Origin: Eledone cirrhosa
Lineage: Eukaryota
NCBI GenBank assembly: GCA_964016885.1
Contig: OZ024747.1
Span: 80,724,001 to 80,788,000, forward strand
DNA: 64,000 bases
Reading direction: 5' to 3'
Numbering within the stretch: the first letter of the stretch is position 1; each line of letters opens with the position of its first letter. Below the pieces are notes generated by a model, which searched no databases, was not told where the DNA came from, and worked only from the letters and a program-made list of their open reading frames with translations. Positions 1 to 56,975 of the stretch are shown in pieces. A program made the position numbers and the translations under genes.

Positions 1-1374
1 TGCATTATTGTAGTATTCAGCATGTTCGCTAAAAATATCAGAGTTAGACGATAGGCGAGAGATTCTAAGAGAAATACTCCGGGGAACTGATTTGATCATG
101 GAGAGTGGGTGGTTAGAGTTAAAGTTAATATACGTAAGGTTCTCATTTACCCTGTGGAAGGGTCGTATCTGTCCGGTATTTAAATTAAGAGTTACGTCCA
201 GAAAGTTTACTACCTTAAGATTGTATTCGTATGTTATTTTTAGGCCCAGTTCACTAAAAGATTTTCTAATATTTTTCCGTAGCCTTTCAAGATTTTGGTT
301 ATTCAAGTTATTAACTAATAAGAGCCCGTCATCTCTATATATCCCCCCCTGTAGATTACTAAATCTACTATGTAATATGTGGGCTATGTAAATTCCCACG
401 AGATCCGTGACCTCCGCCGAGTCGTTGGAACCCATGGTAATATCGAAATTTGTGGGTCTGTCCTTACGTTCCCAGTAGCAGTTATCGAACTTAATAATGG
501 TTTTTCTAGCCTCGAGAATAATATTAATTTCTTCCTCCGTTAGGTCGGAATTGGCCTTAGCAAACGATAGGGCCTTACGTAAAGTGCTTGGTGAGATGGA
601 AGAGTAGTATTCGTCTATGTCAAATTGTATAAACTTAGATTTATTCTTATTCTTAACATTATTAAACCAGCGAATTGCTTCGCTAGTGTTGCCCCATAAT
701 TTAATTTCAATTTTCTTTTTCACTTGAGTTATTACTCTGTCAAGTATATGTTTACTAATTTTCCCTATGTCTGATTTAGAAGGGCATATAAGTCTAATCT
801 TAGGGTTAGAGTCAAAATTTACCTTATGGTCCTTCAGGTTGAAGGTGGGGGTAGCGGGTATAATCGGCTCGGTTCTATCGTCTATCTTGAGATTCTTTAC
901 CACTTTGTATGCCTCGTTGTTAATATTTGCTAGCGTAGTTTCATTTGTTTTTCTATATTTTTTGTGTAGTTCGTTGCGTATGAAGTTATTATACGTATCG
1001 ATATCCATGGTATACACGTTAGAAGTCTTGTCAGCTTTCACAACAATTCCATTGGTATTTTGCAATCTTCGGAGTAGTGCTTTCATGTTGTTCTGCAGCT
1101 CATTATTTCTATGTCTGTTGAACTTAATGTTCATGGTAGTTTTCAATAAGTCCTGTTCGAAAGCTTCGAGGTGAGGGTTTGTAGGTGGGTTTTTACATGA
1201 TTTAAAACCATATGATTCAGACGAGTGATTGGCGCGTCCTTTATCGAAGTGGAAAGCTTTCCATCGTACACGCCGAATGAAGTCGTTACTGCGTTGAATC
1301 ATACTGAGAATATATTCCCTTTTGTTAGGTATAGGTATGTTTTTAAGTGACATACCTATATGATGCCTTTCCAT
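1..1374 (-). CDS. PLE reverse transcriptase ORF, N-terminal part, open to the window edge
   Basis: Hand translation: MERHHIGMSLKNIPIP...FIRRVRWKAFHF...KADKTSNVY...LKDHK...RLICPSKSDIGKISKHILD...FDIDEYYSSI...MGSNDSAEV...GIYRDDGL...FLDVTL. No stop was found. It is absent from the ORF track because it has no stop inside the window. Confidence 0.92.
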   Translation of the reverse strand, partial: MERHHIGMSLKNIPIPNKREYILSMIQRSNDFIRRVRWKAFHFDKGRANHSSESYGFKSCKNPPTNPHLEAFEQDLLKTTMNIKFNRHRNNELQNNMKALLRRLQNTNGIVVKADKTSNVYTMDIDTYNNFIRNELHKKYRKTNETTLANINNEAYKVVKNLKIDDRTEPIIPATPTFNLKDHKVNFDSNPKIRLICPSKSDIGKISKHILDRVITQVKKKIEIKLWGNTSEAIRWFNNVKNKNKSKFIQFDIDEYYSSISPSTLRKALSFAKANSDLTEEEINIILEARKTIIKFDNCYWERKDRPTNFDITMGSNDSAEVTDLVGIYIAHILHSRFSNLQGGIYRDDGLLLVNNLNNQNLERLRKNIRKSFSELGLKITYEYNLKVVNFLDVTLNLNTGQIRPFHRVNENLTYINFNSNHPLSMIKSVPRSISLRISRLSSNSDIFSEHAEYYNNA

Positions 1375-1619
1375 ATTAATGCCGTGTGTCGATGTGGTTG
1401 CTCAACTATGTAGGAGACGATTATTAGGTATAGGATTATCCAAGATGCAGTGATGGTTAATTACTACACTGGATATGGTTGACGTACGGTAAGAGGTTAC
1501 TCTACGAGTTATGGAAGAATTGTTCAAGAAACTTAGTTCTTGATCCTTCAGTATTCCGGAGTGTATATAAAGAATGAATAATAACAGGTAGACATCATAA
1601 AAAGGTAGTTTATTCCGTG

Positions 1620-1731
1620 TGCTTACAAGTGTTTCCACGGTGGTACTGCAGCCTAGTTCCGCTACGTGCAAATTCACAAGTATTTGCAGAACTCGAATAT
1701 CCAATGCTGTGACCACTGTTTCCTCAGAGCA
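1620..1731 (-). ncRNA. Type I hammerhead ribozyme, second pLTR copy
   Basis: Reverse complement of 3966-4077. Confidence 0.85.
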
Positions 1732-1794
1732 GAATGGTAAATATACAATGTAAAAACCCTTAGTAAACATATACTTGACAGAGTAATAACTCAA

Positions 1795-3472
1795 GTGAAA
1801 AAGAAAATTGAAATTAAATTATGGGGCAACACTAGCGAAGCAATTCGCTGGTTTAATAATGTTAAGAATAAGAATAAATCTAAGTTTATACAATTTGACA
1901 TAGACGAATACTACTCTTCCATCTCACCAAGCACTTTACGTAAGGCCCTATCGTTTGCTAAGGCCAATTCCGACCTAACGGAGGAAGAAATTAATATTAT
2001 TCTCGAGGCTAGAAAAACCATTATTAAGTTCGATAACTGCTACTGGGAACGTAAGGACAGACCCACAAATTTCGATATTACCATGGGTTCCAACGACTCG
2101 GCGGAGGTCACGGATCTCGTGGGAATTTACATAGCCCACATATTACATAGTAGATTTAGTAATCTACAGGGGGGGGATATATAGAGATGACGGGCTCTTA
2201 TTAGTTAATAACTTGAATAACCAAAATCTTGAAAGGCTACGGAAAAATATTAGAAAATCTTTTAGTGAACTGGGCCTAAAAATAACATACGAATACAATC
2301 TTAAGGTAGTAAACTTTCTGGACGTAACTCTTAATTTAAATACCGGACAGATACGACCCTTCCACAAGGTAAATGAGAACCTTACGTATATTAACTTTAA
2401 CTCTAACCACCCACTCTCCATGATCAAATCAGTTCCCCGGAGTATTTCTCTTAGAATCTCTCGCCTATCGTCTAACTCTGATATTTTTAGCGAACATGCT
2501 GAATACTACAATAATGCATTAAGGAATGCTGACCACCGGGATACAATAGAATACATCGATAGTAATTTCCACAACACACATAGCTCTACACGTAATCAAG
2601 GTATACGTAACCGGGGGACTAAAACACAAGCACACACACACTATACTACCAGACATACTAATAATAGAAGTTCACCACCAAATAAATCACGTTGTAGAAA
2701 GTATATCTGGTATAATCCTATTTTTAATGCCTCGAATAGTACAAAACTATCTCTTTCATTCTTTAAATTAATCAATAAACACTTCCCTAGTTCCCATAAG
2801 TACAGCAAAATTCTGAACTCCAAAACTATTAGACTATCATACTCCACGGCACCAAACCTTGAAGCATACATAAAAAAACTTAACTTAAGGCAATTAAACA
2901 ACTCTACAAAACAAAACATTTTAGTAACAGGTGGGCAGAACGCAATATCTGCCTCCCAACCACTAAATGGGAGACGGATATTGCACAACCCACCTGTACC
3001 GCTATCACAACCTATCCATGGTATACCCGCTACCCACAACAAAGCATGTAACTGCCATCTACCTGAAAGATGTCCATTGCAGAATGAATGCCTAAAGTCC
3101 AACATTGTTTACCAATGCACGGTTGAATCGGACGACCAGAAATGGTATTATATCGGATCTACCACCACATCGTTTAAATCTCGCTGGTACCGTCATCGAT
3201 TCTCAATCAAACATCAGAATCACCGTTTTGTGACCACGCTCGCCAACAAGACCTGGCAACTCCGTGAACACAACCAACAGTTCACCTTAAAATGGGATAT
3301 ACTTTCCAGCGCAAATGCATATCGGAGTGGTTTGAAGTACTGCAGGTTATGTAACCTTGAGCTATTTTACATACTAAAATCCAAAAACAAACTACTTAAC
3401 GATAGAATTGAACGATCATTATACTGCAACCACAAACTAAAAGCTAAATTCTCTCACTATAAAATAACTTAA
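1795..3472 (+). pseudogene. 5'-truncated PLE RT + GIY-YIG endonuclease, split by a +1 frameshift just before YRDD
   Basis: ORFs 1795-2184 and 2213-3472. G8 at 2169-2176 contrasts with the in-frame G7 in the minus copy (343-349). The C-terminus has CNCHLPERCPLQNECL, IVY...YYIGST...FKSRW..H and CRLCNLE motifs. Confidence 0.92.
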
Positions 3473-3965
3473 CATTCGAACCCGTAACTACAACACCACT
3501 TTCTAGCTAACAACCTTCTCTTCTCCCCCACACTACAAGACAATACACTGCTTATCACTATACATGGTAACTCAGTACAATTCCTAGATTACTACTACAA
3601 AACCAAAAGTTCACTCACCACATATACTTTATCTGTCCCCTCTCTACCTATATATCTCTCTCTACATCCATTACACTCTCTCTCTCTCACCTTTGACCTA
3701 CCTCCCTCTCAACATCTATGAACTTGACCTCTGGGGCAATAAATAATTCCGACCTCAACTATCTACGCATCTCTCCAAAAGTAACTAATAAAACCCCTAC
3801 CATAACATTTTGATTAAGATATCTACAAGCCACTCTCTCCTACTTCTCCAACCCCTGCATATCTTTCCTTCTCTCTCCATCTTCCCTACTTTTCTCTCTT
3901 CCTGTTCCACTCTATCTTCCCCAACAACCCCACTTAAGGGTTTTTACATTGTATATTTACCATTC

Positions 3966-4077
3966 TGCTCTGAGGAAACAGTGGTCACAGCATTGGATAT
4001 TCGAGTTCTGCAAATACTTGTGAATTTGCACGTAGCGGAACTAGGCTGCAGTACCACCGTGGAAACACTTGTAAGCA
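3966..4077 (+). ncRNA. Type I hammerhead ribozyme in the PLE pLTR, with an 85-nt helix II domain
   Basis: TGCT-CTGAGGA-(A ACAGTGGT...ACCACCGT G)-GAAAC-ACTT-GTA-AGCA; predicted cleavage after 4073. Confidence 0.85.
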
Positions 4078-4124
4078 CACGGAATAAACTACCTTTTTAT
4101 GATGTCTACCTGTTATTATTCATT

Positions 4125-4162
<38 letters not shown>

Positions 4163-4380: not shown

Positions 4381-4429
4381 GCTATATATATTTCGGTGAC
4401 AGCCATTATTGGCTGTGACCTCTTCAGGC
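4381..4429 (-). ncRNA. Minimal type I hammerhead in a small fold-back element (4317-4680)
   Basis: GC-CTGAAGA-GGTCACAGCC-AATAAT-GGCTGTCACC-GAAA-TATATA-TA-GC. Helix I is short. A 39 bp inverted repeat (4317-4355 / 4543-4581) brackets it. Confidence 0.75.
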
Positions 4430-4816
4430 AATCCGAATTGGCGTGGAAAATACAGGTACACACGTTGTTGAAGTGTGTTTCACTCTGTCAATACATCGAC
4501 ATGTCCAGCTCCTGGGTGTGTTGTTAGTCCTCCGAGGAACTGGAAGCCAAATTTTACATATTTGACTTACTTATTTTATTTTACATTACTCCGGAGTAAA
4601 CAAACCAACCTGCCTACTTCGTTGAGTGCGCCAATCTGCACACTGAGGTGTCGGTAAACAACCAGCATATACTCAAATATTATATATATATATATATATA
4701 TAGGTTGAAATAAAATGAAAACGAAATTTCATTTCTCACTCTTAGTATGGCACTTACTTAAATGTAAGTATGTATGTATACGTACATACATATATGTATA
4801 CAGACGTACAGTAGCA

Positions 4817-4866
<50 letters not shown>

Positions 4867-5016
4867 CACGTACACATACATATATGCACGCATCAGTTTA
4901 GCGGACGCTTATTATAACGCCGCTTTGTTCGTTTGTAAACAAACTGAACAGCCTGAATTTATGCCATACGGTGTTAAGGCAACCACGTCACCTTTTTGTT
5001 CAACACTGACACAGGA

Positions 5017-5059
5017 ACGATGTACTAGTTTCAAGCTTGTTAGCTATCATCAGCACCGT
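5017..5059 (-). ncRNA. Type I hammerhead ribozyme
   Basis: ACGGTG-CTGATGA-TAGCT-AACA-AGCTT-GAAA-CTAG-TA-CATCGT; palindromic helix III (ACTAGT). Confidence 0.9.
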
Positions 5060-5097
5060 ATACCCATCTGCCAGATAGTTGAACGTTCGAAAGTATA

Positions 5098-5143
5098 TAC
5101 TTTCCTTATGAAAATTAACGGCTGAGCAGCCTAATTTGCATAT
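5098..5143 (-). promoter_or_regulatory. Octamer (ATGCAAAT) plus PSE-like element upstream of the hammerhead
   Basis: TATGCAAATTAG...TAATTTTCATAAGGAAAGTA; same order and near-identical spacing at 27948-27991. Confidence 0.55.
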
Positions 5144-5295
5144 TGAGTGAGTTGAATCGGTCAGGCATACCGAAAACGATAAGTTGAAATAAAATGAAAA
5201 CGAAATTTCATTTCTCACTCTTAGTATGGCACTTACTTAAATGTAAGTATGTATGTATACGTACATACATATATGTATACAGACGTACAGTAGCA

Positions 5296-5338
<43 letters not shown>

Positions 5339-6034
5339 GTTTAGCGGACGCTTATTATAACGCCGCTTTGTTCGTTTTATTGTTATACACACACTCGAAT
5401 GTGTATCTGGAAGAATAGTAAATTATATATAAACAAAATACCTTCCATCATAACGTGAGATGGTCATACAGTTTAACACTTACTTGAATACATGCAACCT
5501 GTTAGGCCTTTTAGCGATTTTGGCCATATCAACGAAAAATATCCTCGATCGTCACAGTTAATCGGTCTCTCAATTTTAGCAGACAGTTTCTGTTTACATA
5601 GCTGTATAATAAGGCTTGACTATAAAAATATACCAGCTCTCGAGTCAACGAATTAACCTCTTCTACATGACTTTTATACCTGCTAGAAATAGAAATTGAT
5701 CCTTCCATCATGAAAATAGAGGGACATGGTGAATTACGAAGTCGTAGATATGCAATATTCGGGGAAAAGAAAGACGTTATAGCTAAAGTACTTTTTCTCA
5801 TGGCCTTGCTCAGCTGATAAACAAAACCCAAATTCAACTATATTAACTCATATGTAAACGACGAAGACTTGATGTTGTTTCGCACTACTCTTACGTCTAT
5901 CTCTTCTCTCCTTATCAAAACTTTCATAAAGAAGGACTTCTGTTCGAAACGTTGAAACATCCTCTACATCCTCCAAGCATGAACTTAATATAACTGTGGA
6001 AAATTGCCTTCTGTGTATTCTTTGTTTCATTTAT

Positions 6035-11287: not shown

Positions 11288-11385
11288 AGGGAGTGTAACT
11301 TGGAGTTACTGTAGGTTCACCCGGGTGAGCACTCGATGTTTAAGTTTACACTTCTGTGTAGAGGTGTGTGTATATATATATATAT

Positions 11386-14300
11386 GAATATAGACATAGA
11401 ATATTCGAAAATATTCTGTATGTTTATAATAAACATTTTGAAGACCTAATCGCTATAGAATAGAATACGTCACGTATTACAATTAGATTCTCGACAAAAG
11501 CAAGGGAAGTAATCTACGCGTTTCATTCTTGTTAGAAATCATCAGGACTACATATCCAGTGCTTTTATCGAGAATGACACAGCTAGAGACTTATAGAATA
11601 CTTAGCTGTGTACAGGAACTGGTTTGAAAGAGCGGTTGCCGGTCCGGCAGAAATTAGAAATTGGAATAAATGCTCTGAAATAGCGATATATATGTGAATA
11701 TAGACATAGAATATTCGAAAATATTCTGTATGTTTATAATAAACATTTTGAAGACCTAATCGCTATAGAATAGAATACGTCACGTATTACAATTAGATTC
11801 TCGACAAAAGCAAGGGAAGTAATCTACGCGTTTCATTCTTGTTAGAAATCATCAGGACTACATATCCAGTGCTTTTATCGAGAATGACACAGCTAGAGAC
11901 TTATAGAATACTTAGCTGTGTACAGGAACTGGTTTGAAAGAGCGGTTGCCGGTCCGGCAGAAATTAGAAATTGGAATAAATGCTCTGAAATAGCGATATA
12001 TATGTGAATATAGACATAGAATATTCGAAAATATTCTGTATGTTTATAATAAACATTTTGAAGACCTAATCGCTATAGAATAGAATACGTCACGTATTAC
12101 AATTAGATTCTCGACAAAAGCAAGGGAAGTAATCTACGCGTTTCATTCTTGTTAGAAATCATCAGGACTACATATCCAGTGCTTTTATCGAGAATGACAC
12201 AGCTAGAGACTTATAGAATACTTAGCTGTGTACAGGAACTGGTTTGAAAGAGCGGTTGCCGGTCCGGCAGAAATTAGAAATTGGAATAAATGCTCTGAAA
12301 TAGCGATATATATGTGAATATAGACATAGAATATTCGAAAATATTCTGTATGTTTATAATAAACATTTTGAAGACCTAATCGCTATAGAATAGAATACGT
12401 CACGTATTACAATTAGATTCTCGACAAAAGCAAGGGAAGTAATCTACGCGTTTCATTCTTGTTAGAAATCATCAGGACTACATATCCAGTGCTTTTATCG
12501 AGAATGACACAGCTAGAGACTTATAGAATACTTAGCTGTGTACAGGAACTGGTTTGAAAGAGCGGTTGCCGGTCCGGCAGAAATTAGAAATTGGAATAAA
12601 TGCTCTGAAATAGCGATATATATGTGAATATAGACATAGAATATTCGAAAATATTCTGTATGTTTATAATAAACATTTTGAAGACCTAATCGCTATAGAA
12701 TAGAATACGTCACGTATTACAATTAGATTCTCGACAAAAGCAAGGGAAGTAATCTACGCGTTTCATTCTTGTTAGAAATCATCAGGACTACATATCCAGT
12801 GCTTTTATCGAGAATGACACAGCTAGAGACTTATAGAATACTTAGCTGTGTACAGGAACTGGTTTGAAAGAGCGGTTGCCGGTCCGGCAGAAATTAGAAA
12901 TTGGAATAAATGCTCTGAAATAGCGATATATATGTGAATATAGACATAGAATATTCGAAAATATTCTGTATGTTTATAATAAACATTTTGAAGACCTAAT
13001 CGCTATAGAATAGAATACGTCACGTATTACAATTAGATTCTCGACAAAAGCAAGGGAAGTAATCTACGCGTTTCATTCTTGTTAGAAATCATCAGGACTA
13101 CATATCCAGTGCTTTTATCGAGAATGACACAGCTAGAGACTTATAGAATACTTAGCTGTGTACAGGAACTGGTTTGAAAGAGCGGTTGCCGGTCCGGCAG
13201 AAATTAGAAATTGGAATAAATGCTCTGAAATAGCGATATATATGTGAATATAGACATAGAATATTCGAAAATATTCTGTATGTTTATAATAAACATTTTG
13301 AAGACCTAATCGCTATAGAATAGAATACGTCACGTATTACAATTAGATTCTCGACAAAAGCAAGGGAAGTAATCTACGCGTTTCATTCTTGTTAGAAATC
13401 ATCAGGACTACATATCCAGTGCTTTTATCGAGAATGACACAGCTAGAGACTTATAGAATACTTAGCTGTGTACAGGAACTGGTTTGAAAGAGCGGTTGCC
13501 GGTCCGGCAGAAATTAGAAATTGGAATAAATGCTCTGAAATAGCGATATATATGTGAATATAGACATAGAATATTCGAAAATATTCTGTATGTTTATAAT
13601 AAACATTTTGAAGACCTAATCGCTATAGAATAGAATACGTCACGTATTACAATTAGATTCTCGACAAAAGCAAGGGAAGTAATCTACGCGTTTCATTCTT
13701 GTTAGAAATCATCAGGACTACATATCCAGTGCTTTTATCGAGAATGACACAGCTAGAGACTTATAGAATACTTAGCTGTGTACAGGAACTGGTTTGAAAG
13801 AGCGGTTGCCGGTCCGGCAGAAATTAGAAATTGGAATAAATGCTCTGAAATAGCGATATATATGTGAATATAGACATAGAATATTCGAAAATATTCTGTA
13901 TGTTTATAATAAACATTTTGAAGACCTAATCGCTATAGAATAGAATACGTCGCGTATTACAATTAGATTCTCGACAAAAGCAAGGGAAGTAATCTACGCG
14001 TTTCATTCTTGTTAGAAATCATCAGGACTACATATCCAGTGCTTTTATCGAGAATGACACAGCTAGAGACTTATAGAATACTTAGCTGTGTACAGGAACT
14101 GGTTTGAAAGAGCGGTTGCCGGTCCGGCAGAAATTAGAAATTGGAATAAATGCTCTGAAATAGCGATATATATGTGAATATAGACATAGAATATTCGAAA
14201 ATATTCTGTATGTTTATAATAAACATTTTGAAGACCTAATCGCTATAGAATAGAATACGTCACGTATTACAATTAGATTCTCGACAAAAGCAAGGGAAGT

Positions 14301-14480
14301 AATCTACGCGTTTCATTCTTGTTAGAAATCATCAGGACTACATATCCAGTGCTTTTATCGAGAATGACACAGCTAGAGACTTATAGAATACTTAGCTGTG
14401 TACAGGAACTGGTTTGAAAGAGCGGTTGCCGGTCCGGCAGAAATTAGAAATTGGAATAAATGCTCTGAAATAGCGATATA
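11386..14480 (-). mobile_element. Tandem array of ten 310 bp monomers, each with a type I hammerhead (retrozyme-like)
   Basis: Units start at 11386+310n (n=0-9). Only one substitution was seen (A>G at 13952). Both ends are flanked by (TA)n. Confidence 0.95.
11509..11551 (-). ncRNA. Type I hammerhead of the 310 bp monomer (repeated every 310 bp up to 14299-14341)
   Basis: GTAGTC-CTGATGA-TTTCT-AACA-AGAAT-GAAA-CGCG-TA-GATTAC. Helix I is extended by ATTCTCGATAAAAGCA/TGCTTTTGTCGAGAAT. Predicted cut between 11515 and 11514. Confidence 0.93.
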
Positions 14481-15138
14481 TATATATATATATATATATA
14501 TAGATATATATAGATAGATAGATAGATATATAACAAAGAAGGTGTGGTAAGATACCAGATGGACCATAACCCACCAGAGTACACGATACTTAGGATAGTA
14601 GAGTGGGTAATAGGAAAAGAGTCACGACCCCCACGGCTGAGCCCTGGCCGTTTCGACAGCTAGATCCGAAATATGAATATATATATATATAAATAAAACT
14701 TACATTCAAACATATTCTCACTATATAAGCCCACTCGAATGAATATATAAAACGTATAATTCATTTTCACTACAAACTTATATACATACACAATGACACG
14801 AAAATATTCTTTCTTGGCTTCAACAATACACATAGTCGTATATAGGTTTATAAACTGACACTTATATAAACACCTGGTCATGTGAAGATGTCAATAAGCA
14901 CACACGCCTATGAACAAAACCAAAACAAATACACAGAACATGCAATAAGCACATATACATCATCTGAAAAACCTGCATATATATCTTAGTACCAACGTAG
15001 AAACACGTAATGCATATTCAAATATTTCATCGCAAATACATACAAACATGCACAAATATCGGATTACGTTCAAACGCTCATAACCTCACGCACATTTTCC
15101 AAAATTAGTAAAATACACGCGCAGCTATAATATACGAT

Positions 15139-27557: not shown

Positions 27558-27852
27558 ATATAAACAAATAACGAAACGAAATTAAATTTCGTTTCGTTTG
27601 TAACTCACTTTTGTATGACTGACGCTTAAACAATTAAGTTAAAAATGTACATCCACATGTGTATACTGAAATACTAGTATGCATATGAATACACACACGT
27701 ATAAATATGTAGATGTACCGAGTTTTTCACTGGTCACTTTACTGTGAGTGTCCAGCTATTCTGTATGTAAACACACAGACAAACCGGTTTTTAGAGTCAT
27801 ACTAGTTTTTGAGGAAACACCTTTCCTCTATTCTCCAGAAAGCCAGACAAGG

Positions 27853-27897
27853 AATATTGAACTAGTTTCGTTGTTGTTACAACTCATCAGCAATATT
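27853..27897 (-). ncRNA. Type I hammerhead ribozyme
   Basis: AATATTG-CTGATGA-GTTGT-AACA-ACAAC-GAAA-CTAG-TT-CAATATT. Confidence 0.92.
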
Positions 27898-27947
27898 TAC
27901 CTATCTTCCGGCCTTTCTAGAGAATCGTAAAAGCACATATCGTTATA

Positions 27948-27991
27948 TGCTTTTTCTATGAAAATTAGTAGTGGGCAGACTAATTTGCATA
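27948..27991 (-). promoter_or_regulatory. Octamer plus PSE-like element upstream of the hammerhead
   Basis: TATGCAAATTAG TCTGCCCACTA CTAATTTTCATAGAAAAAGCA. Confidence 0.55.
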
Positions 27992-28273
27992 GAGCGTGAG
28001 TACGTACCGGTTCAGCGGAGACGATAAAAACAAATAACGAAACGAAATTAAATTTCGTTGTCTGGCTTTCTGGAGAATAGAGGAAAGGTGTTTCCTCAAA
28101 AACCAGTATGACTCTAAAAACCGGTTTGTCTGTGTGTTTACATACAGAATAGCTGGACACTCACAGTAAAGTGACCAGTGAAAAACTCGGTACATCTACA
28201 TATGTATACGTGTGTGTATTCATATGCATACTAGTATTTCAGTATACATATGTGGATGTACATTTTTAACTTA

Positions 28274-28358
<85 letters not shown>

Positions 28359-29144: not shown

Positions 29145-29179
<35 letters not shown>

Positions 29180-29217
29180 ATTAAATAAATGGAAAACTAT
29201 ATTTATAAAACCATATC

Positions 29218-29283
29218 TATTTCATTATATATATTTCGGGGATATCATATTAACAATATGCTATGCCTTCATCAGACAAAATA
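29218..29283 (-). ncRNA. Type I hammerhead, left arm
   Basis: Reverse complement of 32460-32525. Confidence 0.85.
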
Positions 29284-29643
29284 CAATATAAACAGTTTTA
29301 TAGATAAATATATTCGACATACCGTAATAAACATCAACTTCATTTGAAGAGGTTTACGCTAGCAGTGAAAATACAGAGAGAAAGAAAGAGAGAAAGAAAA
29401 GAGGGAAAAAAGAAAGAAAGAAAGACAAAACGAAGAGAAGGAAGAAAAAGAAGAAAAAGAAAAAGAAGAAATGCATGGAACAAAATAGAGAGATGGAAAA
29501 ATAGATAAAGCGAAGAGCTTCATGTAAAGAGACAGAAAGAGATATATATATATAGAGAGAGAGGAAATAGAGATAGATACATATATATATATAGAAAATT
29601 AGGTAGTGGGAGGTCATTTTGAGTAAGTGTATCAATGATACAT

Positions 29644-29682
<39 letters not shown>

Positions 29683-32040
29683 GCTCAAGTATTAATGTAA
29701 GGAAGATATATAGAGAGATATAGAGAGATATAGAGAGAGAAAAAAAAAAAAAAATTTAAAATAGCCAGACATATTCGAGGCGTAGAAAACCCTATGTTTT
29801 AATGTATTAGTATTTATAAAACTTACACTATATTGTAAATATCAGTATTCCTGAATGAAACAAGTATTCACAATGTGTGAAAATTCATTATCTTATGTTT
29901 AGTTTTAAAAAATTCATATGTTTATGTGACAGCTACAAACATCAATGTGAATCCAACTGATTCACTCCGCAAACTCTAAGTTACCGGAAAACATTCTCAA
30001 TGTGGTATAAAAATTTGAGCATATTATTATTCTTGCGATTACTCTACAAGATTATCTATCAAGCAGAAATAGAGAGCAGATTTCAATATACTAATCGAAA
30101 ATATATATTATATTATAAACAAAGATAACAATAATAATAATAAGTAAAAATATATAAAAATATAGAATAGAAAACTAAAAAAAAAAATATTACGAAAGAA
30201 TATTACATAATAAAAATATTGCATATTAAAAATACTACGTATTAAAAAATATTACGTATTAAAAATTTACATATAAAAATATTAAAAATAAAATAAAAAA
30301 TAAAAATATTATAGAATACTACAATACTAAAAGAATAAAAATAAAAATAAAAATAAAAATAAAAATGAAAATAAAATAAAAATAAACCACAAAGAACAAC
30401 CCTTCAAAGTTAATTGACAATATATTGCCAAGTTCATTGCAAGACAAAGCCAAAAATTATCTATCAAATCACATCTAGCAAAGAATATCGCAAAAAAGAT
30501 TATGATGTCCAATAATGTCTACATATGTTCCTATATTTAATATAGAAGTTTATCTAGTGTAAGGTTAATTCAAAAAATTTGGAGCATCGGCTTTTAGGGT
30601 AGCTTAATTTTTCATGAGGAATGTTTAGATAAAAATAAAAATAAATTAAATAAATTAAACAATAAAAAGAGTAAAAAGAGGGAATCAAAGATTTAGGAAT
30701 CTTCAACGGCACTATCAGGGGTACTCTGGCAACTTAAGCTAGATAACGTTAGATATTCGACGGCTTGGAATATAGTCTCAAGAGGGATTCCTTTTAATTC
30801 ATCCTCTGAGACATGTGACCTCTGCGCAGAGGAGATATTCTTTATACTAAAATCTAAAAATTCCCTTAACCTACGGACAAATTTATTCAGTTGTTGCAAA
30901 CATAGATTAAACTCAACGTTTAAATATAAATTTAAATTTAAAATGTAGTATATTTAGTTTGATTTATATTTATATGAGAACTAGCCGATAAATCTTTTGA
31001 TTCCTAAATCTTTGATTCCCTCTTTTTACTCTTTTTATTGTTTAATTTATTTTATTTATTTTTATTTTTATTTTTTATCTAAACATTCCTCATGAAAAAT
31101 TAAGCTACCCTAAAAGCCGATGCTCCAAATTTTTTGAATTAACCTTACACTAGATAAACTTCTATATTAAATATAGGAACATATGTAGACATTATTGGAC
31201 ATCATAATCTTTTTTGCGATATTCTTTGCTAGATGTGATTTGATAGATAATTTTTGGCTTTGTCTTGTAATGAACTTGGCAATATATTGTCAATTAATTT
31301 TGAAGGGTTGTTCTTTGTGGTTTATTTTTATTTTATTTTCATTTTTATTTTTATTTTTATTTTTATTTTTATTTTTATTCTTTTAGTATTGTAGTATTCT
31401 ATAATATTTTTATTTTTTATTTTATTTTTAATATTTTTATATGTAAATTTTTAATACGTAATATTTTTTAATACGTAGTATTTTTAATATGCAATATTTT
31501 TATTATGTAATATTCTTTCGTAATATTTTTTTTTTTTTAGTTTTCTATTCTATATTTTTATATATTTTTACTTATTATTATTATTATTGTTATCTTTGTT
31601 TATAATATAATATATATTTTCGATTAGTATATTGAAATCTGCTCTCTATTTCTGCTTGATAGATAATCTTGTAGAGTAATCGCAAGAATAATAATATGCT
31701 CAAATTTTTATACCACATTGAGAATGTTTTCCGGTAACCTAGAGTTTGCGGAGTGAATCAGTTGGATTCACATTGATGTTTGTAGCTGTCACATAAACAT
31801 ATGAATTTTTTAAAACTAAACATAAGATAATGAATTTTTACACATTGTGAATACTTGTTTCATTCAGGAATACTGATATTTACAATATAGTGTAAGTTTT
31901 ATAAATACTAATACATTAAAACATAGGGTTTTCTACGCCTCGAATATGTCTGGCTATTTTAAATTTTTTTTTTTTTTTTTTTTCTCTCTCTATATCTCTC
32001 TATATCTCTCTATATATCTCCCTTACATTAATACTTGAGC

Positions 32041-32099
<59 letters not shown>

Positions 32100-32459
32100 A
32101 TGTATCATTGATACACTTACTCAAAATGACCTCCCACTACCTAATTTTCTATATATATATATGTATCTATCTCTATTTCCTCTCTCTCTATATAAATATA
32201 TCTCTTTCTGTCTCTTTACATGAAGCTCTTCGCTTTATCTATTTTTCCATCTCTCTATTTTGTTCCATGCATTTCTTCTTTTTCTTTTTCTTCTTTTTCT
32301 TCCTTCTCTTCGTTTTGTCTTTCTTTCTTTCTTTTTTCCCTCTTTTCTTTCTCTCTTTCTTTCTCTCTGTATTTTCACTGCTAGCGTAAACCTCTTCAAA
32401 TGAAGTTGATGTTTATTACGGTATGTCGAATATATTTATCTATAAAACTGTTTATATTG

Positions 32460-32525
32460 TATTTTGTCTGATGAAGGCATAGCATATTGTTAATATGATA
32501 TCCCCGAAATATATATAATGAAATA
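32460..32525 (+). ncRNA. Type I hammerhead, right arm
   Basis: TATTTTGT-CTGATGA-AGGCATAGCATATTGTTAATATGATATCCCC-GAAA-TATATA-TA-ATGAAATA. Confidence 0.85.
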
Positions 32526-32660
32526 GATATGGTTTTATAAATATAGTTTTCCATTTATTTAATATTTAATATTGTAAATATACTCCAAATATTTGTCGAG
32601 TGCTTTTATATCAGTTATAAATATTTACTAGTTGTAACCCAACAATTTTAAATATAACTT

Positions 32661-35713: not shown

Positions 35714-37771
35714 TCAGGCCAAGTCGAAGACTCCACCCTCAGAGTCTGGTGTGGTTGCCAGGTTGGATTCTCTGTTTAATTTTGACATGTGTAGGAGCGA
35801 GTTTGAGTCAGTTTGTGCTCGTTGTGTATATCCTGGGAGATGGGGTTCATCTCTAATGGTGCTTAAGTATCTATCCAGCTGCAATTTGAATGATTCCACA
35901 CTGCATCCTGATAGATTTCTGACATGTACCGGAATGGAGTTGAATAGTTGTGTCCCTCTAACCAACAGACTTGACTCTCGCAGGGTTTTTGCTGCCTGGC
36001 CAGCCCTTTTGTTGATTGGTGGTAGCTGGCAGCGTCTTCCGTGGCGCAGTGAGTGGTAGGTTTTGATACCGAAGTTTGGCACCTTTTGCTCTATCATTTT
36101 CCAAATGTATATAATTCGGTATCGCTCAAATCTTCTTTCTATTGAGTACATCTTCAAGGTTCTGAGTCTTTGCCAATAGTCCAGGTCCCTCGTTTCTGAG
36201 AAGTATGAAGTAAAATTTCTTTGGAGCGATTCCATCTTAGATAGTTGGCCCTTTGTTGTTGGTGACCACAACTGAGAACAGTAGTCAATCCTCGGAAGTA
36301 TCATACTGTTCCAGAGGGTTTTCATTGTTGAGGTATCTCTTGATTTGAAGGTGCGCAAGATCCACCCGCTGTACTTTCTTGCAGTAAGACAGACTGAGTC
36401 AAGGTGTTCTCTGAATTTTAGGCTGGTTCCCATGTGGATGCCTAAATCTTTCACACACTGTTTTTCCATTATTTGTTGTCCTGATGGGTTTCTGTAGTTT
36501 GTTGTATTTTTCAGATCTTGATCTGTTCCGTAGCGAATTAGTTCAAACTTCTTATCATTGAACAACATGTTGTTTGTTTCCTGCCATTTGTATATGGTGG
36601 TTAGGTCCTTTTGTAAGGCCTCTGTATCCACCTCGTCTTTGATTTGTCTCATGACCCTGGTGTCATCAGCAAAGGATGAGACGTTGCTGGTTGTATCTTC
36701 ATCTATGTCAGAGATGAGGATGAGAAACAGGATCGGGACGAGTACTGTACCCTGAGGAACACTGCTGGTCACAGGTGATGGTGTTGAATGGGTTCCATTC
36801 ACAGTGACTGTTTGAGTTCTATTTGTAAGGAACTCATGTATCCATGTACCAACTTTTCCTCCTACTCCTAGCTTTCGAAGTTTGTGTCCCAGGATGCCAT
36901 GATCTACCTTGTCAAATGCCTTGGCAAAGTCGAGGTAAATAACATCTGTGTTGTATCCATTCTCTAGATTTTCTAGGATTTGGTCATGGTGTGCCAGTAG
37001 TTGGGAAAGACATGATCTACCTAACCTGAATCCATGCTGATTGCAATTCATCAGATTGTTGGATTCCAGGAACTCAACTAGTTTTCCACGAACTATTCTT
37101 TCGAAGACCTTGATAATGTGTGATGTCAGTGAGATTGGTCGGTAGTTCTTTGGTTTTGATTTGCTGTCCCCTTTATGTATTGGAGTTATGTGTGCTTCTT
37201 TATATGTATTTGGTATTTTGCCATTCTCCATAGATTCCTTCCATATCATGTAAAGGGGTTTCAACAATTGTACCTTGCAGTTTTTAAGTATCATGGCATT
37301 GAAACCATCAGGCCCCGCAGCCGAGTGCATGGAGAGCTTGTCTATGGCTCTTTCTATGTCTTCTGGGTTGAAATCAATGTCGGATAGGGTAGGTTTAGTA
37401 TGGTCGATATCCTTGAAGAATTCTCCTGGGTCATGGATCTTCATGGTTTTAGATGGCTCACTGAAGACACTTTCATACTGTTGACCCAACATTTCTGCCA
37501 TTTCAATAGGGTTATTCACTACATCCCCATTTTGTCTCTGGAGAGGTCCTATTGTTGACTTGGTATTCGAGTATTTCTTTGCAAAACTGTAGAAACATTT
37601 TGGATTTTTCTTGATGTTTTCTATGGCTCTCTTTTCTGCATTGTTACGTTCTTCATCATAGTATTGTTTTAGATTGTCTTCTAATCTGTATATTTGGTCA
37701 AGGACTTTCTGTAGTTCATGTTTTGATGTCAGCTTAGATGTTTTGTTTCTTAGTCTTGACCTTTTGCGCAT
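35714..37771 (-). CDS. LINE ORF2 reverse transcriptase region
   Basis: AAGPDG, NYRPISLTS, QHGFRLGRSC, YLDFAKAFDKVDH, VPQGTVL, FADD, KDLGI motifs. Confidence 0.95.
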   Translation of the reverse strand: MRKRSRLRNKTSKLTSKHELQKVLDQIYRLEDNLKQYYDEERNNAEKRAIENIKKNPKCFYSFAKKYSNTKSTIGPLQRQNGDVVNNPIEMAEMLGQQYESVFSEPSKTMKIHDPGEFFKDIDHTKPTLSDIDFNPEDIERAIDKLSMHSAAGPDGFNAMILKNCKVQLLKPLYMIWKESMENGKIPNTYKEAHITPIHKGDSKSKPKNYRPISLTSHIIKVFERIVRGKLVEFLESNNLMNCNQHGFRLGRSCLSQLLAHHDQILENLENGYNTDVIYLDFAKAFDKVDHGILGHKLRKLGVGGKVGTWIHEFLTNRTQTVTVNGTHSTPSPVTSSVPQGTVLVPILFLILISDIDEDTTSNVSSFADDTRVMRQIKDEVDTEALQKDLTTIYKWQETNNMLFNDKKFELIRYGTDQDLKNTTNYRNPSGQQIMEKQCVKDLGIHMGTSLKFREHLDSVCLTARKYSGWILRTFKSRDTSTMKTLWNSMILPRIDYCSQLWSPTTKGQLSKMESLQRNFTSYFSETRDLDYWQRLRTLKMYSIERRFERYRIIYIWKMIEQKVPNFGIKTYHSLRHGRRCQLPPINKRAGQAAKTLRESSLLVRGTQLFNSIPVHVRNLSGCSVESFKLQLDRYLSTIRDEPHLPGYTQRAQTDSNSLLHMSKLNRESNLATTPDSEGGVFDLA

Positions 37772-38925
37772 CAGGATCTTTCGCTCCCGTGGTACAGGTT
37801 TTTTGTGGATTTGGTTTTCTTAAGAGGAATATTTTTTGCACATATTTCTTCGATCTTGTTTAAGAATTTCTTGTGTTTATCTGGCCCAGTAAGGTAGAGA
37901 TCCCAGTCAATGATTTGTAATTGGTTGTTAATAGTTTCCCAATTTGCCTGGTGATAATCATACCTGCATAGCTTTGGCATGTCCTTTTGTTTAAGAGTTG
38001 TGGCATTGGGCTCATTACCAATGTGTAAATGCATTTCAATAATATTGTGGTCTGAAAGGATTGTTGGGGTTGAGTGAAGGTCAAATAGCGTGTCCTCGTT
38101 GTTGGTGAAAACCAAGTCGATCGTATTATTATTTCTAGTTGCTTCTGTCATCATTTGTTTGAGGTATAATTTCTCTGTGACTTCCAACAGTTTGGCTGCC
38201 TGTATTTGTTCAGCTTTTGTCCCCAGTTTTAGTATGTGTCCATGTGGCCAGATGATGTTAGGGAAGTTGAAGTCACCAAGGAGGATAATGTTTGGCATTG
38301 GACTCGCCATGTTTCCCAGAATTTGTTGGAGCTTTGTCAGTGGTTCAGTGAAGGATAATGTTGGGCTGTTTGGCGGTCTGTACATTATTGTTACAACTGT
38401 ATTAAGTTGGATGATTTTTATGCACAGCAGGTTGCAGTAGGCATTTGATTCATTGACAAGTTCTATGCATGCATAGGTATCATGGATATACATGATAACG
38501 CCCCCATGGGATCTGACTTGTCTATCACATCTGAAGATGTTGAATCCATTGATTGAGATTTCGCTGTTGCGGATGTTTTCGTTGAGATGACTTTCAGTAA
38601 TTCCAATTATTTTGGAGTTGTTTTCTGTTGCTAATTCTTCCAAGAAAGGGACTTTACACTGTTTTGTTTTCGGATAAAGACCCTGGATATTTGCTGTTAT
38701 TATGCTTGTTGTACCGGATACATCTGCCCTATTGTTGGCAAGACTGTTGTAGTTGCTGGGACTGTGCTGACTGGATATTTGGTCTGCTGGGCTGTCTGTA
38801 TTTGTTGTATGTGCCCTGTAAGTCCAGGTGTCAGCCTTTGTATCAATGTTGCCTGGTTTTGCTGAGTCATCTGTATGGAGTACAGCTGTTGTTGTAGTTG
38901 GTAGATTATGCCTAAAAAACTGCTT
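37771..38925 (-). CDS. LINE ORF2 APE endonuclease region, separated from RT by a 1-nt frameshift near 37799-37804
   Basis: ANIQGL, ITESHL, GGV, YRPP, GDFNFP, IDLVF, SDHN motifs. The frame is open from 38925. One extra base would join it to KPVPRERKILMRKRSR. Confidence 0.9.
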   Translation of the reverse strand, partial: KQFFRHNLPTTTTAVLHTDDSAKPGNIDTKADTWTYRAHTTNTDSPADQISSQHSPSNYNSLANNRADVSGTTSIITANIQGLYPKTKQCKVPFLEELATENNSKIIGITESHLNENIRNSEISINGFNIFRCDRQVRSHGGVIMYIHDTYACIELVNESNAYCNLLCIKIIQLNTVVTIMYRPPNSPTLSFTEPLTKLQQILGNMASPMPNIILLGDFNFPNIIWPHGHILKLGTKAEQIQAAKLLEVTEKLYLKQMMTEATRNNNTIDLVFTNNEDTLFDLHSTPTILSDHNIIEMHLHIGNEPNATTLKQKDMPKLCRYDYHQANWETINNQLQIIDWDLYLTGPDKHKKFLNKIEEICAKNIPLKKTKSTKNLYHGSERS

Positions 38926-55421: not shown

Positions 55422-56360
55422 CCTTCACATTAAAGTATCCTTCGTAGAACCCACTTTTTGCCTAGTTTGTTCGACACGGTATACATAACATCAACATCAC
55501 TAACTTCTACAATGCAATGACAGAGTGCAAGTCCTTTGGGTGTTTCTGCAACCCTCTTTAGATTAAAATGCTGCGAGTTTTGATATCAGAAAAGCAGTTG
55601 ATTTCGCTCCATGTGGATGGTCACTGTTTTCCATATATGACAAAATGGAGCTATCTCACTCAAAGATTAAAACCTTCTCTAAAACAACGAAGATCTAATC
55701 TATTAATTGTACATCCAACAACTACCATTACTAAGGGTTTGTCAATGATAGATTACCGGAATCGTTCCACCTTATGCGGTCAACCAATGTCCTCTGATCT
55801 AATTTGTAAAAGTAAAGTAATTTCCCTTGAGATTAACACATTCAAAATACAAGAATATTTTGTCAATGCCATTCTATAAAAAACATTAGAAACTTTCTGA
55901 TTATATTTTCTGTGTAAAGGTGTCAGTAGAGAGTGCTATTTTTCAGAATCCTTCGATTCAGGTGCACACATCTATCCTAAAATTTCATTGATGTTTCAAC
56001 ATATTCGTTGTAATATTAAAAGCAAAACATCTTCTCTAGTGATACAACTCCCTGTCTATAATTTGGAAATCTTCCAAATGTAGACATTTTTATTAAAGCA
56101 TAAATATATTCTCCATTAGTTAAGTAAATAATACCTCCCTCGGTTTCGAGGGTAAGTGTTCCAATAGTTCGATCATTATATAATGTGAACTTGACAATAT
56201 CATGTCATATTTCTATCCAAACTACAGGACATCTCAATTGTTTCAAAAACACTTCCAAACGAATCAATCTATAAACAGTCACTCGGTCAGCTTGAAACAT
56301 GAATCAATTTTCTTTCAAACTCCATACTACAGTTTTAGAAAAGGGAGGGACTTTTATGTA

Positions 56361-56975
56361 ATGTAGTTCAACATAGATTAAATATGAAAACAGACTGGAT
56401 GGTCGCACCTAGAAAAGGGCCTCTTATCTAATGTAATTCAACATAGATTAAATATGAAAATAGACTGGATGGTCGCACCTCGAAAAGGGCCTCTTATCTA
56501 ATGTAATTCAACATAGATTAAATATGAAAATAGACTGGATGGTCGCACCTCGAAAAGGGCCTCTTATCTAATGTAATTCAACATAGATTAAATATGAAAA
56601 TAGACTGGATGGTCGCACCTCGAAAAGGGCCTCTTATCTAATGTAATTCAACATAGATTAAATATGAAAATAGACTGGATGGTCGCACCTCGAACAGGGC
56701 CTCTTATCTAATGTAATTCAACATAGATTAAATATGAAAATAGACTGGATGGTCGCAACTCGAAAAGGGCCTCTTATCTAATGTAATTCAACATAGATTA
56801 AATATGAAAACAGACTGGATGGTCGCACCTAGAAAAGGGCCTCTTATCTAATGTAGTTCAACATAGATTAAATATGAAAATAGACTGGATGGTCGCACCT
56901 AGAAAAGGGCCTCTTATCTAATGTAGTTCAACATAGATTAAATATGAAAATAGACTGGATGGTCGAACCTAGAAA
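56361..56975. repeat. 70 bp minisatellite, ~8.8 copies
   Basis: Unit ATGTAATTCAACATAGATTAAATATGAAAATAGACTGGATGGTCGCACCTCGAAAAGGGCCTCTTATCTA, starting at 56361+70n. Confidence 0.95.

What the first reader, a model, noticed from the sequence alone, without database searches (positions are those of the whole stretch)
5017..5143. Hammerhead unit with its own snRNA-type promoter (octamer + PSE-like), 479 bp monomer
Seen: on the minus strand, TATGCAAATTAG then TAATTTTCATAAGGAAAGTA lie 40-85 nt upstream of a perfect hammerhead. The same motifs in the same order recur in the otherwise highly diverged element at 27.9 kb. Known: octamer + PSE drive snRNA genes, and newt satellite 2 uses such a promoter. 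Inference: a self-transcribing ribozyme SINE. It carries an external promoter forward by transcribing through the tandem unit, with the ribozyme defining the monomer ends.
Basis: partly seen in the sequence, partly recalled or inferred. Interest (0 to 1): 0.85.

Follow-up and report, generated by a model that had tools for sequence, protein, structure and literature searches.

The report
Ribozyme repeat with hybrid snRNA promoter
This is one copy of a small repeat, present thousands of times in this animal genome, that contains a hammerhead (self-cutting RNA) motif and DNA signals matching those in front of the host's own small nuclear RNA genes, so it likely switches itself on and is likely spread by Penelope-type jumping genes, much as reported for a newt repeat.

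Summary
The motifs, the hammerhead and the 27.9 kb recurrence are real. The element is a non-LTR retrozyme (28,009 related hammerhead cores genome-wide). Its octamer 12-mer matches 11-12/12 at -77 to -79 in five host Pol III loci (three U6, U6atac, RNase MRP) and in none of 26 U1/U2/U4/U5 or 5 SRP upstreams. The likely PSE is a YCAG core 5 nt after the 12-mer, placed relative to the TATA box as in host Pol II snRNA genes, in most related lineages. It scores weakly in this family. T-runs argue against Pol III read-through. So the promoter is likely a hybrid read by Pol II. The hammerhead is imperfect (U-U mismatch, 2-bp stem III). DNA ends lie at two fixed internal sites, a Penelope signature, not at the ribozyme. 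This copy has 1.4 units and one ribozyme, so it cannot yield a monomer alone. It is not a SINE. Transcription and cleavage are untested. Precedent: newt satellite 2. The scan noted this family and its promoter before, on other DNA of this genome.

The parts
4700..5377 (-). Family A retrozyme insertion, 1.4 units, 5'-truncated, 3' end running into (TA)n
5131..5142 (-). Octamer-containing 12-mer, same as the motif at -77 to -79 of host U6, U6atac and RNase MRP loci
5122..5125 (-). Likely PSE core (YCAG), 17 nt from the 12-mer start; host Pol II snRNA genes have it at -55 to -58. Weak score in this family
5107..5118 (-).
5093..5100 (-). TATA-like box, 42 nt from the 12-mer start (host Pol III type-3: 46-48)
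5069..5069 (-). Predicted transcription start (inferred from host spacing), 47 nt before the cut
   Evidence: inference
5017..5059 (-). Type I hammerhead: 6-bp stem I, U-U at the base of stem II, 2-bp stem III with palindromic loop, GUA triplet; predicted cut between 5023 and 5022
4700..4758 (-). 59-nt 'tail' between the family's two fixed 3' ends (unit positions 264 and 323)
27558..28281 (-). Family B retrozyme (467-bp unit) with 12-mer 27991-27980, TATA-like 27950-27943, hammerhead core from 27890, and an inverted 5' arm (about 28038-28281)
11376..14498 (-). Family C retrozyme array, 10 x 310 bp. No octamer; U1/U2-type PSE site 77 nt before the core and the host distal snRNA motif about 258 nt before the predicted start
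1..4133 (+). Rearranged Penelope-like element (RT then GIY-YIG motifs read by eye, inverted 5' part, hammerhead in the terminal repeat at 3970); type of candidate helper, no sequence shared with A, B or C

Best explanation
The stretch is the promoter-plus-ribozyme part of a tandem, non-coding hammerhead repeat (a non-LTR retrozyme) whose units carry the host's U6-class octamer motif followed by a likely PSE core and a TATA-like box at the spacing of host Pol II snRNA genes, so RNA polymerase II likely starts about 47 nt before the ribozyme, would read through into the next unit, and the ribozymes are predicted to cut out unit-length RNAs that likely circularise and are likely copied back into DNA by a Penelope-like reverse transcriptase. 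Because the promoter lies inside the cut-to-cut monomer (about positions 360-430 of 479), it is copied with every unit. SHOWN: motif identity with host genes, spacing, conservation across lineages, tandem arrays, and two fixed internal 3' ends with inverted 5' arms in (TA)n. INFERRED: promoter activity, polymerase, start site, cleavage (probably as a dimer, given the 2-bp stem III), circles, and the helper. The copy in this window has one ribozyme and ends before a second promoter, so it is likely a dead end; arrays of two or more ribozymes would be the source copies.
For: Family size: 28,009 hammerhead-core matches, control 0; the 40 best copies are 99-100% identical; arrays of 466-502 bp. 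12-mer in 5 of 5 promoter-bearing type-3 Pol III loci, 0 of 9 U1/U2, 0 of 5 SRP and 0 of 17 U4/U5 upstreams; shuffles reach 11/12 in 0.6%. 107 further 12-mer + hammerhead-core hits, control 0, fall into lineages D-H. A matrix trained only on 16 host U1/U2/U4/U5 upstreams ranks offset 17 first of 41 in consensuses A, E, G and H, and second in F; E scores 12-18 bits and C 10.4 bits. 12-mer + YCAGTR: 60 hits vs 4 control, spacer exactly 5 nt in 55 of 60 with varied spacer sequence. The hairpin partner of the 12-mer lies downstream in A, B and G and upstream in E while the 12-mer stays fixed. Variable columns in A: 2 of 26 in promoter blocks vs 53 of 183 elsewhere, p=0.013. T runs of 4-7 in every A and B unit examined. 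No host-type 3' box on the sense strand. 3' ends within 6 nt of two sites: A 54 of 63, B 17 of 18, C 8 of 8; one short and one long end in 15 of 19, 3 of 4 and 3 of 3 head-to-head pairs, as described for PLE tails (PMC11167929, PMC8557442). Units within arrays differ by 1.5 nt vs 3.3 between arrays.
Against: No RNA, start-site or cleavage data seen. Family A's own Pol II-matrix score is only -2.3 bits, which 45% of random 90-nt windows reach somewhere; the support is positional and offset 17 was noticed before the test. Family B ranks 6th and scores at the 97th percentile on the small Pol III-register matrix. No host gene examined has the octamer + YCAG combination (Rfam 0 hits in 20 of 30 composite-motif loci), so the hybrid has no host template. 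A and B lack the host distal motif (7-8/13). Lineages share ancestry, so they are not independent, and the 12-mer was used to find D-H. The 12-mer also pairs in the predicted RNA fold. T4 runs are leaky Pol III stops (recalled). Absence of a 3' box is what chance gives (random median 4.5 bits). No sequence is shared with the neighbouring PLE. No A-to-G excess was found (6 vs 10).
Confidence: 0.6

Rival explanations
1. The promoter is real but is a U6-type (type 3) Pol III promoter with shortened spacing; read-through of T runs is leaky but sufficient, or full monomers come from other transcription.
For: The 12-mer is found only in host Pol III type-3 genes. A TATA-like box is present. Family D keeps the host spacing of 47-48 in 9 of 11 copies. 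B scores at the 97th percentile in Pol III register. Family A mostly has only T4 runs.
Against: 12-mer to TATA is 41-44 in A, B, E-I vs 46-48 in host genes. The YCAG core at offset 17 is a Pol II-gene feature absent from the five Pol III loci. B has T5-T6 runs. Host Pol II snRNA genes here also have TATA-like boxes.
Confidence: 0.2
2. The motifs are an inherited relic or are kept for RNA structure or protein binding on the RNA; the repeats are transcribed passively from outside promoters.
For: The 12-mer pairs with its inverted copy in the predicted circle. A's PSE score is weak. Lineages are related. Extended stem I includes sequence upstream of the predicted start.
Against: Exact identity with a position-fixed host promoter motif. 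The partner moves between lineages while the 12-mer does not. The spacer varies at fixed length. Family C, which lacks the 12-mer, has three host U1/U2-type elements in register.
Confidence: 0.15
3. A conventional SINE or a DNA-level satellite spread by LINEs or by unequal exchange, with the ribozyme setting the ends of the inserted copy.
For: Tandem arrays exist, 5' ends are variable, and a LINE-type RT fragment lies in the window.
Against: No tRNA/7SL/5S head by Rfam. 3' ends are at two fixed sites 264 and 323 nt past the cut, not at it. Inverted 5' arms with a tail on one end only. Dispersed near-identical copies lie on many contigs.
Confidence: 0.05

Closest known systems
Newt satellite 2 (Coats, Zhang and Epstein 1994; not held, known here only from citing passages in PMC2220036 and PMC6765202)
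   Same: Tandem hammerhead repeat with an internal snRNA-type promoter used by Pol II; weak stem III.
   Different: Invertebrate host. The octamer block is shared with host Pol III type-3 genes and sits 5 nt from the PSE core. Several lineages with three promoter layouts. Activity untested here. Octamer + PSE detail and a 47-nt leader in newt are recalled, not read.
Metazoan non-LTR retrozymes of coral, mussel and axolotl (PMC7229834, parts 2-4 of 6 and passages read)
   Same: Type I hammerhead in low-GC tandem units, self-paired predicted circle; axolotl HHR_Amex2 also has U-U at the base of stem II and cleaves better as a dimer; PLE helper proposed.
   Different: Unit of 466-502 bp is slightly above the stated 150-450 bp. 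The paper's two uses of 'promoter' both concern T7 constructs. Here there are host-matched promoter motifs and a PLE tail signature.
Vertebrate retrozymes as non-autonomous PLE derivatives (10.64898/2026.07.22.740005; abstract, passages and Discussion read; supplements closed)
   Same: Non-autonomous partner of PLEs.
   Different: Vertebrates only, based on co-distribution and pLTR phylogeny, with no occurrence of 'promoter' in the main text. Here the evidence is insertion-end anatomy, and no pLTR similarity was found with the one PLE tested.
Schistosoma Sm-alpha hammerhead repeats (passages in PMC6765202, PMC2220036)
   Same: The upstream unit's promoter drives the next unit; the ribozyme frees monomers.
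   Different: Described as Pol III-transcribed (A/B boxes recalled); here an upstream-type snRNA promoter.
PLE tail / internal RT initiation (PMC11167929 parts 1-2 of 4; PMC8557442 passages)
   Same: Two fixed internal 3' ends, tail on one end, inverted 5'-truncated copy, AT-rich targets.
   Different: Non-coding passenger; tails of 59, 69 and 26 nt rather than 30-40.

Membership tests
Metazoan non-LTR retrozyme | Type I hammerhead with conserved core and three stems | tested here: met
   Core and stems parsed in A, B, C, E and some F copies; stems I and II differ in sequence between families while pairing. Imperfect: U-U, 2-bp stem III; below Rfam cut-off.
Metazoan non-LTR retrozyme | Short tandem units, many loci, GC below 50% | tested here: met
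   Arrays of 466-502 bp; 41% GC over 240 nt around the ribozyme. Unit slightly longer than the published range.
Metazoan non-LTR retrozyme | No coding capacity | tested here: met
   No ORF of 130 aa or more on the element's strand; one 138-aa stop-to-stop frame through TA repeats on the other strand.
Metazoan non-LTR retrozyme | Highly self-paired circular monomer (predicted) | tested here: met
   Circular MFE z of -10.2, -9.7 and -3.6 for A, B, C against 30 shuffles; TA repeats inflate this.
Metazoan non-LTR retrozyme | Self-cleavage and linear/circular RNA in vivo | not testable with these tools
   No RNA or biochemical data seen.
Non-autonomous PLE passenger | Two fixed 3' ends (tail), inverted 5'-truncated arm, microsatellite targets | tested here: met
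   A 54 of 63 ends, 15 of 19 pairs, 56 of 63 TA flanks; B 17 of 18 ends; C 8 of 8.
Non-autonomous PLE passenger | Sequence shared with an autonomous PLE's terminal repeat | tested here: inconclusive
   No BLAST hit to the one PLE in the window; other PLE families not searched.
Host type-3 Pol III promoter (U6, U6atac, MRP) | Octamer 12-mer upstream motif | tested here: met
   12/12 in A and B; 11-12/12 in 5 host loci.
Host type-3 Pol III promoter (U6, U6atac, MRP) | 12-mer to TATA distance 46-48 | tested here: not met
   42 in A, 41 in B; met only by family D (9 of 11).
Host type-3 Pol III promoter (U6, U6atac, MRP) | Transcribed region free of T runs | tested here: not met
   4 runs in each A unit tested (T4, one T7), 3-5 in B including T5 and T6.
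Host Pol II snRNA promoter (U1, U2, U4, U5) | YCAG(T) core about 25-27 nt before the TATA-like box | tested here: inconclusive
   Position met and ranked first in A, E, G, H, but the score is weak in A and poor in B.
Host Pol II snRNA promoter (U1, U2, U4, U5) | Distal motif near -260 (seen in most U1/U2 and U6 loci) | tested here: not met
   A 7/13, B 8/13; met in C, 12/13 at about -258.
Host Pol II snRNA promoter (U1, U2, U4, U5) | SNAPc/Pol II-dependent initiation | not testable with these tools
   Needs RACE, ChIP or reporter.
SINE (tRNA/7SL/5S head, internal Pol III promoter, LINE-type 3' end) | Small-RNA-derived head and a single 3' end at the RNA's end | tested here: not met
   No Rfam hit; two internal 3' ends and inverted arms.

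The most novel reading that the evidence does not exclude
Animal retrozymes are parasites of the snRNA (SNAPc) transcription system, and this superfamily has built a promoter that no examined host gene uses: the Pol III-class octamer block fused to a Pol II-class PSE core with 5 bp shorter spacing. Sister lineages hold the other states (D with U6 spacing and a T run just after the ribozyme; C with a pure U1/U2 layout whose distal element doubles as ribozyme stem I). The family would be a natural experiment in switching polymerase to escape T-run termination, copied by Penelope enzymes from two internal start sites.
Probability: 0.3. Interest if true: 0.75.

Novelty: new variant of a known kind. 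Interest (0 to 1): 0.55.

Why it matters
Retrozyme RNAs are reported to be very abundant, yet the two retrozyme papers read here do not say what transcribes them. A self-contained snRNA-type promoter is known only second-hand from the newt. Here the motifs can be matched to the host's own genes, which yields exact predictions: start at 5069, Pol II, three mutable boxes, two RT start sites. It also defines this animal's U6-type and U1-type promoter and 3'-box motifs as a by-product, useful for expressing guide RNAs. The principle has precedent, so this widens and sharpens a known idea rather than opening a new one.

Tried and rejected
The 20-mer as PSE: no host match above shuffles. SRP genes as promoter source: no 12-mer. 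A host gene with octamer + YCAG: none among U1, U2, U4, U5, nor by Rfam in 20 of 30 composite-motif loci; U3, U7, U11, U12, U4atac, 7SK, RNase P and tRNA-Sec were not examined. A Pol III-register matrix from five genes was uninformative (leave-one-out -7.3 to 3.7; D only 88th percentile), so D's U6-likeness rests on TATA spacing alone. A-to-G editing scars: not seen in 40 A and 14 B sequences. Promoter or sequence inherited from the neighbouring PLE: no 12-mer, no Pol II site, no BLAST hit. Pfam named nothing in that PLE's ORF; its identity rests on motifs read by eye and on 7 relatives of 29-33% identity, one with a sub-threshold GIY-YIG hit. Rfam miRNA hits are TA-repeat artefacts. Rows dropped before the host count: 14 lower-scoring dispersed U6 hits and 7 of 8 U6atac hits lack the 12-mer at -78 and look like promoterless retrocopies; 5 of 10 U6 array copies have it displaced by an insertion. 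Coats 1994 and Cremisi 1992 were not held.

Full report
OBSERVATION. On the minus strand the 12-mer lies at 5142-5131, the 20-mer at 5117-5098 and a type I hammerhead at 5059-5017. The ribozyme is not perfect: U-U closes stem II, stem III is two pairs with a 2-nt palindromic loop, and the triplet is GUA. Rfam finds nothing at gathering score and HH9 at 18.6 bits, cut-off 52. An axolotl retrozyme ribozyme with the same U-U cleaved 22% in an hour as a monomer and better as a dimer (PMC7229834), so activity is plausible but untested. The insertion spans 4700-5377: 1.4 units, one ribozyme, cut-to-cut monomer 479 nt. The window holds two more such elements: B at 27.9 kb with the same two motifs, and C, a 10 x 310 bp array without them.

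FAMILY. The genome (3.0 Gb; earlier scan notes call it an octopus, which I did not test) has 28,009 matches to the shared ribozyme core, reversed control 0. The 40 best A copies are 99-100% identical and lie on many contigs. Arrays have periods of 466-502 (A), 466-467 (B) and 310-311 (C). Predicted circular monomers are strongly self-paired (z -10.2, -9.7, -3.6; 30 shuffles; TA repeats contribute). This is the non-LTR retrozyme anatomy of PMC7229834.

HOST PROMOTERS. I fetched U1, U2, U4, U5, U6, U6atac, RNase MRP and SRP loci. Five otherwise unrelated Pol III type-3 upstreams (two single U6 genes, one U6 array, the best U6atac hit, MRP) match the 12-mer at 11-12/12 at -77 to -79, with a TATA box 46-48 nt further on. 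0 of 9 U1/U2 and 0 of 5 SRP upstreams do (best 7-9/12; shuffles reach 11 in 0.6%), nor 17 U4/U5 upstreams (best 7-10). Left out of the five: 14 dispersed U6 and 7 U6atac hits without the motif at -78, apparently retrocopies, and 5 array copies with an insertion. Sixteen Pol II snRNA upstreams share instead a YCAG(T) core at -55 to -58 and mostly a TATA-like box. Most U1/U2 and U6 loci share a distal 13-mer near -260, and a 3' box follows the Pol II genes.

It matches no host gene above shuffle level. Its first half is the reverse complement of the 12-mer with one mismatch and pairs with it in the predicted circle of A and B. In lineage G the pair changes on both sides; in E the partner lies upstream. 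Its last letters begin the TATA box. So it is a structural partner, not a PSE. Host upstreams reach 8-10 of 12 such pairs by chance, so this rests on the fold and on the cross-family change.

WHERE THE PSE LIKELY IS. In A and B the TATA-like box is 42 and 41 nt from the 12-mer, 5-6 closer than in U6-type genes. A search for the 12-mer followed by a ribozyme core, built to exclude A and B, gave 107 hits, control 0. I read the first 30 and 20 that I picked; they form lineages D-H and an older A. A matrix trained only on host Pol II upstreams ranks offset 17 first of 41 in A, 2 of 3 old A (the third shifted by a 1-nt deletion), 5 of 5 E, 3 of 6 F, 3 of 4 G and 3 of 3 H; sixth in B; and in 0 of 11 D. 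On consensuses: first in A, E, G, H, second in F, sixth in B, 33rd in D (lineage I was found through the core and is not counted). Core-to-TATA distance is 25-27 in these lineages and mostly 24-29 in the 11 of 16 host genes with a regex hit. A genome search for 12-mer + 4-6 nt + YCAGTR gave 60 hits vs 4 control, with a 5-nt spacer in 55 and varied spacer sequence. Of 30 loci read, 4 have an exact ribozyme core (null 0.6%), many others a decayed one by eye, and 20 scanned hold no Rfam gene. Limits: I saw offset 17 before testing it; lineages are related; A's score of -2.3 bits is reached somewhere in 45% of random 90-nt windows, whereas E (12-18 bits) and C (10.4 bits; 0.4%) are strong. In Drosophila the Pol II layout is likewise 4 bp tighter than the U6 layout, though there the PSE sequence itself selects the polymerase (PMC4227766 passages).

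CONSERVATION. Between A and B the 12-mer is the longest identical run; 12-mer-to-TATA is 38/49 identical, against 192/367 for the rest and at most 0.71 for any equal window there. Within A, 2 of 26 promoter-block columns vary against 53 of 183 others (p=0.013; 40 distinct sequences, not independent).

POLYMERASE. Every A and B unit examined has 3-5 runs of four or more T, up to T7. A transcript must cross them all to reach the next ribozyme, which favours Pol II. No host-type 3' box lies on the sense strand (best 2.1-4.9 bits vs 7.3-19.8 for 15 host genes), but random DNA scores the same. D keeps U6 spacing (47-48 in 9 of 11) and has a T run just after its ribozyme. C has the Pol II site, a TATA-like box and the distal 13-mer (12/13, about -258), the last overlapping stem I. 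A and B lack the distal motif.

HOW IT SPREADS. In loci chosen by ribozyme or identity, not by ends, 54 of 63 A 3' ends fall at unit positions 264 or 323, 17 of 18 B ends at 234 or 303, and 8 of 8 C ends at 139 or 165; 5' ends are scattered; 56 of 63 A ends run into TA repeats. Head-to-head pairs carry one short and one long end in 15 of 19, 3 of 4 and 3 of 3 cases. This is the PLE tail and inverted-arm pattern (PMC8557442), which for one PLE was traced to two internal RT start sites (PMC11167929). Copying from inside the monomer back across the cut needs a circle or a multimer, and carries the promoter along. Units within arrays are more alike than between arrays (1.5 vs 3.3 differences, 23 and 277 pairs). 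A PLE-like element lies at 1-4133 but shares no sequence or promoter motif with A, B or C; the helper is unidentified.

WHAT IS KNOWN. Newt satellite 2 is cited as Pol II-transcribed from an snRNA promoter, and schistosome repeats as Pol III-driven from the upstream unit (passages in PMC2220036 and PMC6765202; the primary papers were not held). A 2026 preprint links vertebrate retrozymes to PLEs and never uses the word promoter (supplements closed, and those of the other papers unread). Eight searches listed no paper describing an snRNA-type promoter in an invertebrate retrozyme, judged from listings and the passages named; the library lacks most subscription journals. Six earlier scan notes describe these families and a U6-like promoter on other DNA of this genome; I read them after forming and testing my reading, and they are not independent support. 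What their short texts do not state is the reassignment of the 20-mer and the Pol II-spaced core.

VERDICT. A real retrozyme with real host snRNA-promoter motifs; promoter function about 0.8, Pol II hybrid reading about 0.6; new variant of a known kind; interest 0.55.

Noticed in passing
window 11376-14498 (-): Family C array has a U1/U2-type promoter layout without the octamer; the host distal snRNA motif overlaps the 3' strand of ribozyme stem I, a possible dual-use sequence.
   Followed up: partly
window 1-4133: Rearranged Penelope-like element with RT, linker cysteines and C-terminal GIY-YIG motifs (by eye), inverted arms and a hammerhead with a long stem II in its terminal repeat (3970); Pfam names nothing in it.
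   Followed up: partly
window 4387-4427 (-), 29230-29275 (-), 32468-32513 (+): Further hammerhead-like cores with long stem II; the latter two lie in the arms of a large inverted repeat (29171-32572).
   Followed up: no
L156, L157, L164 and related (family D): Old dispersed hammerhead family with the 12-mer at exact U6 spacing and a T run directly after the ribozyme; how it copied its promoter is unexplained.
   Followed up: partly
L162, L173 (family E); L223, L230, L232 (family H): The octamer module is tandemly duplicated upstream (period about 37 and 41 nt).
   Followed up: no
L001-L039, L114-L138, L186-L213: Host snRNA promoter code: octamer 12-mer at -78 only in Pol III type-3 genes, YCAG core at -56 in Pol II genes, TATA-like boxes in both, a shared distal 13-mer near -260, a 3' box 9-24 nt downstream; SRP genes have a different upstream motif near -34.
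   Followed up: partly
L034, L035, L037-L039: Half of the U6 array copies read have a repeat of about 176 nt inserted between the TATA box and the gene.
   Followed up: no
window 35714-38925 (-): LINE-type element with endonuclease and RT domains (Pfam PF14529, PF00078) in two frames.
   Followed up: partly
window 56346-56976 and 62405-64000: Tandem arrays of 70 bp (9 copies) and 39 bp (41 copies or more).
   Followed up: no
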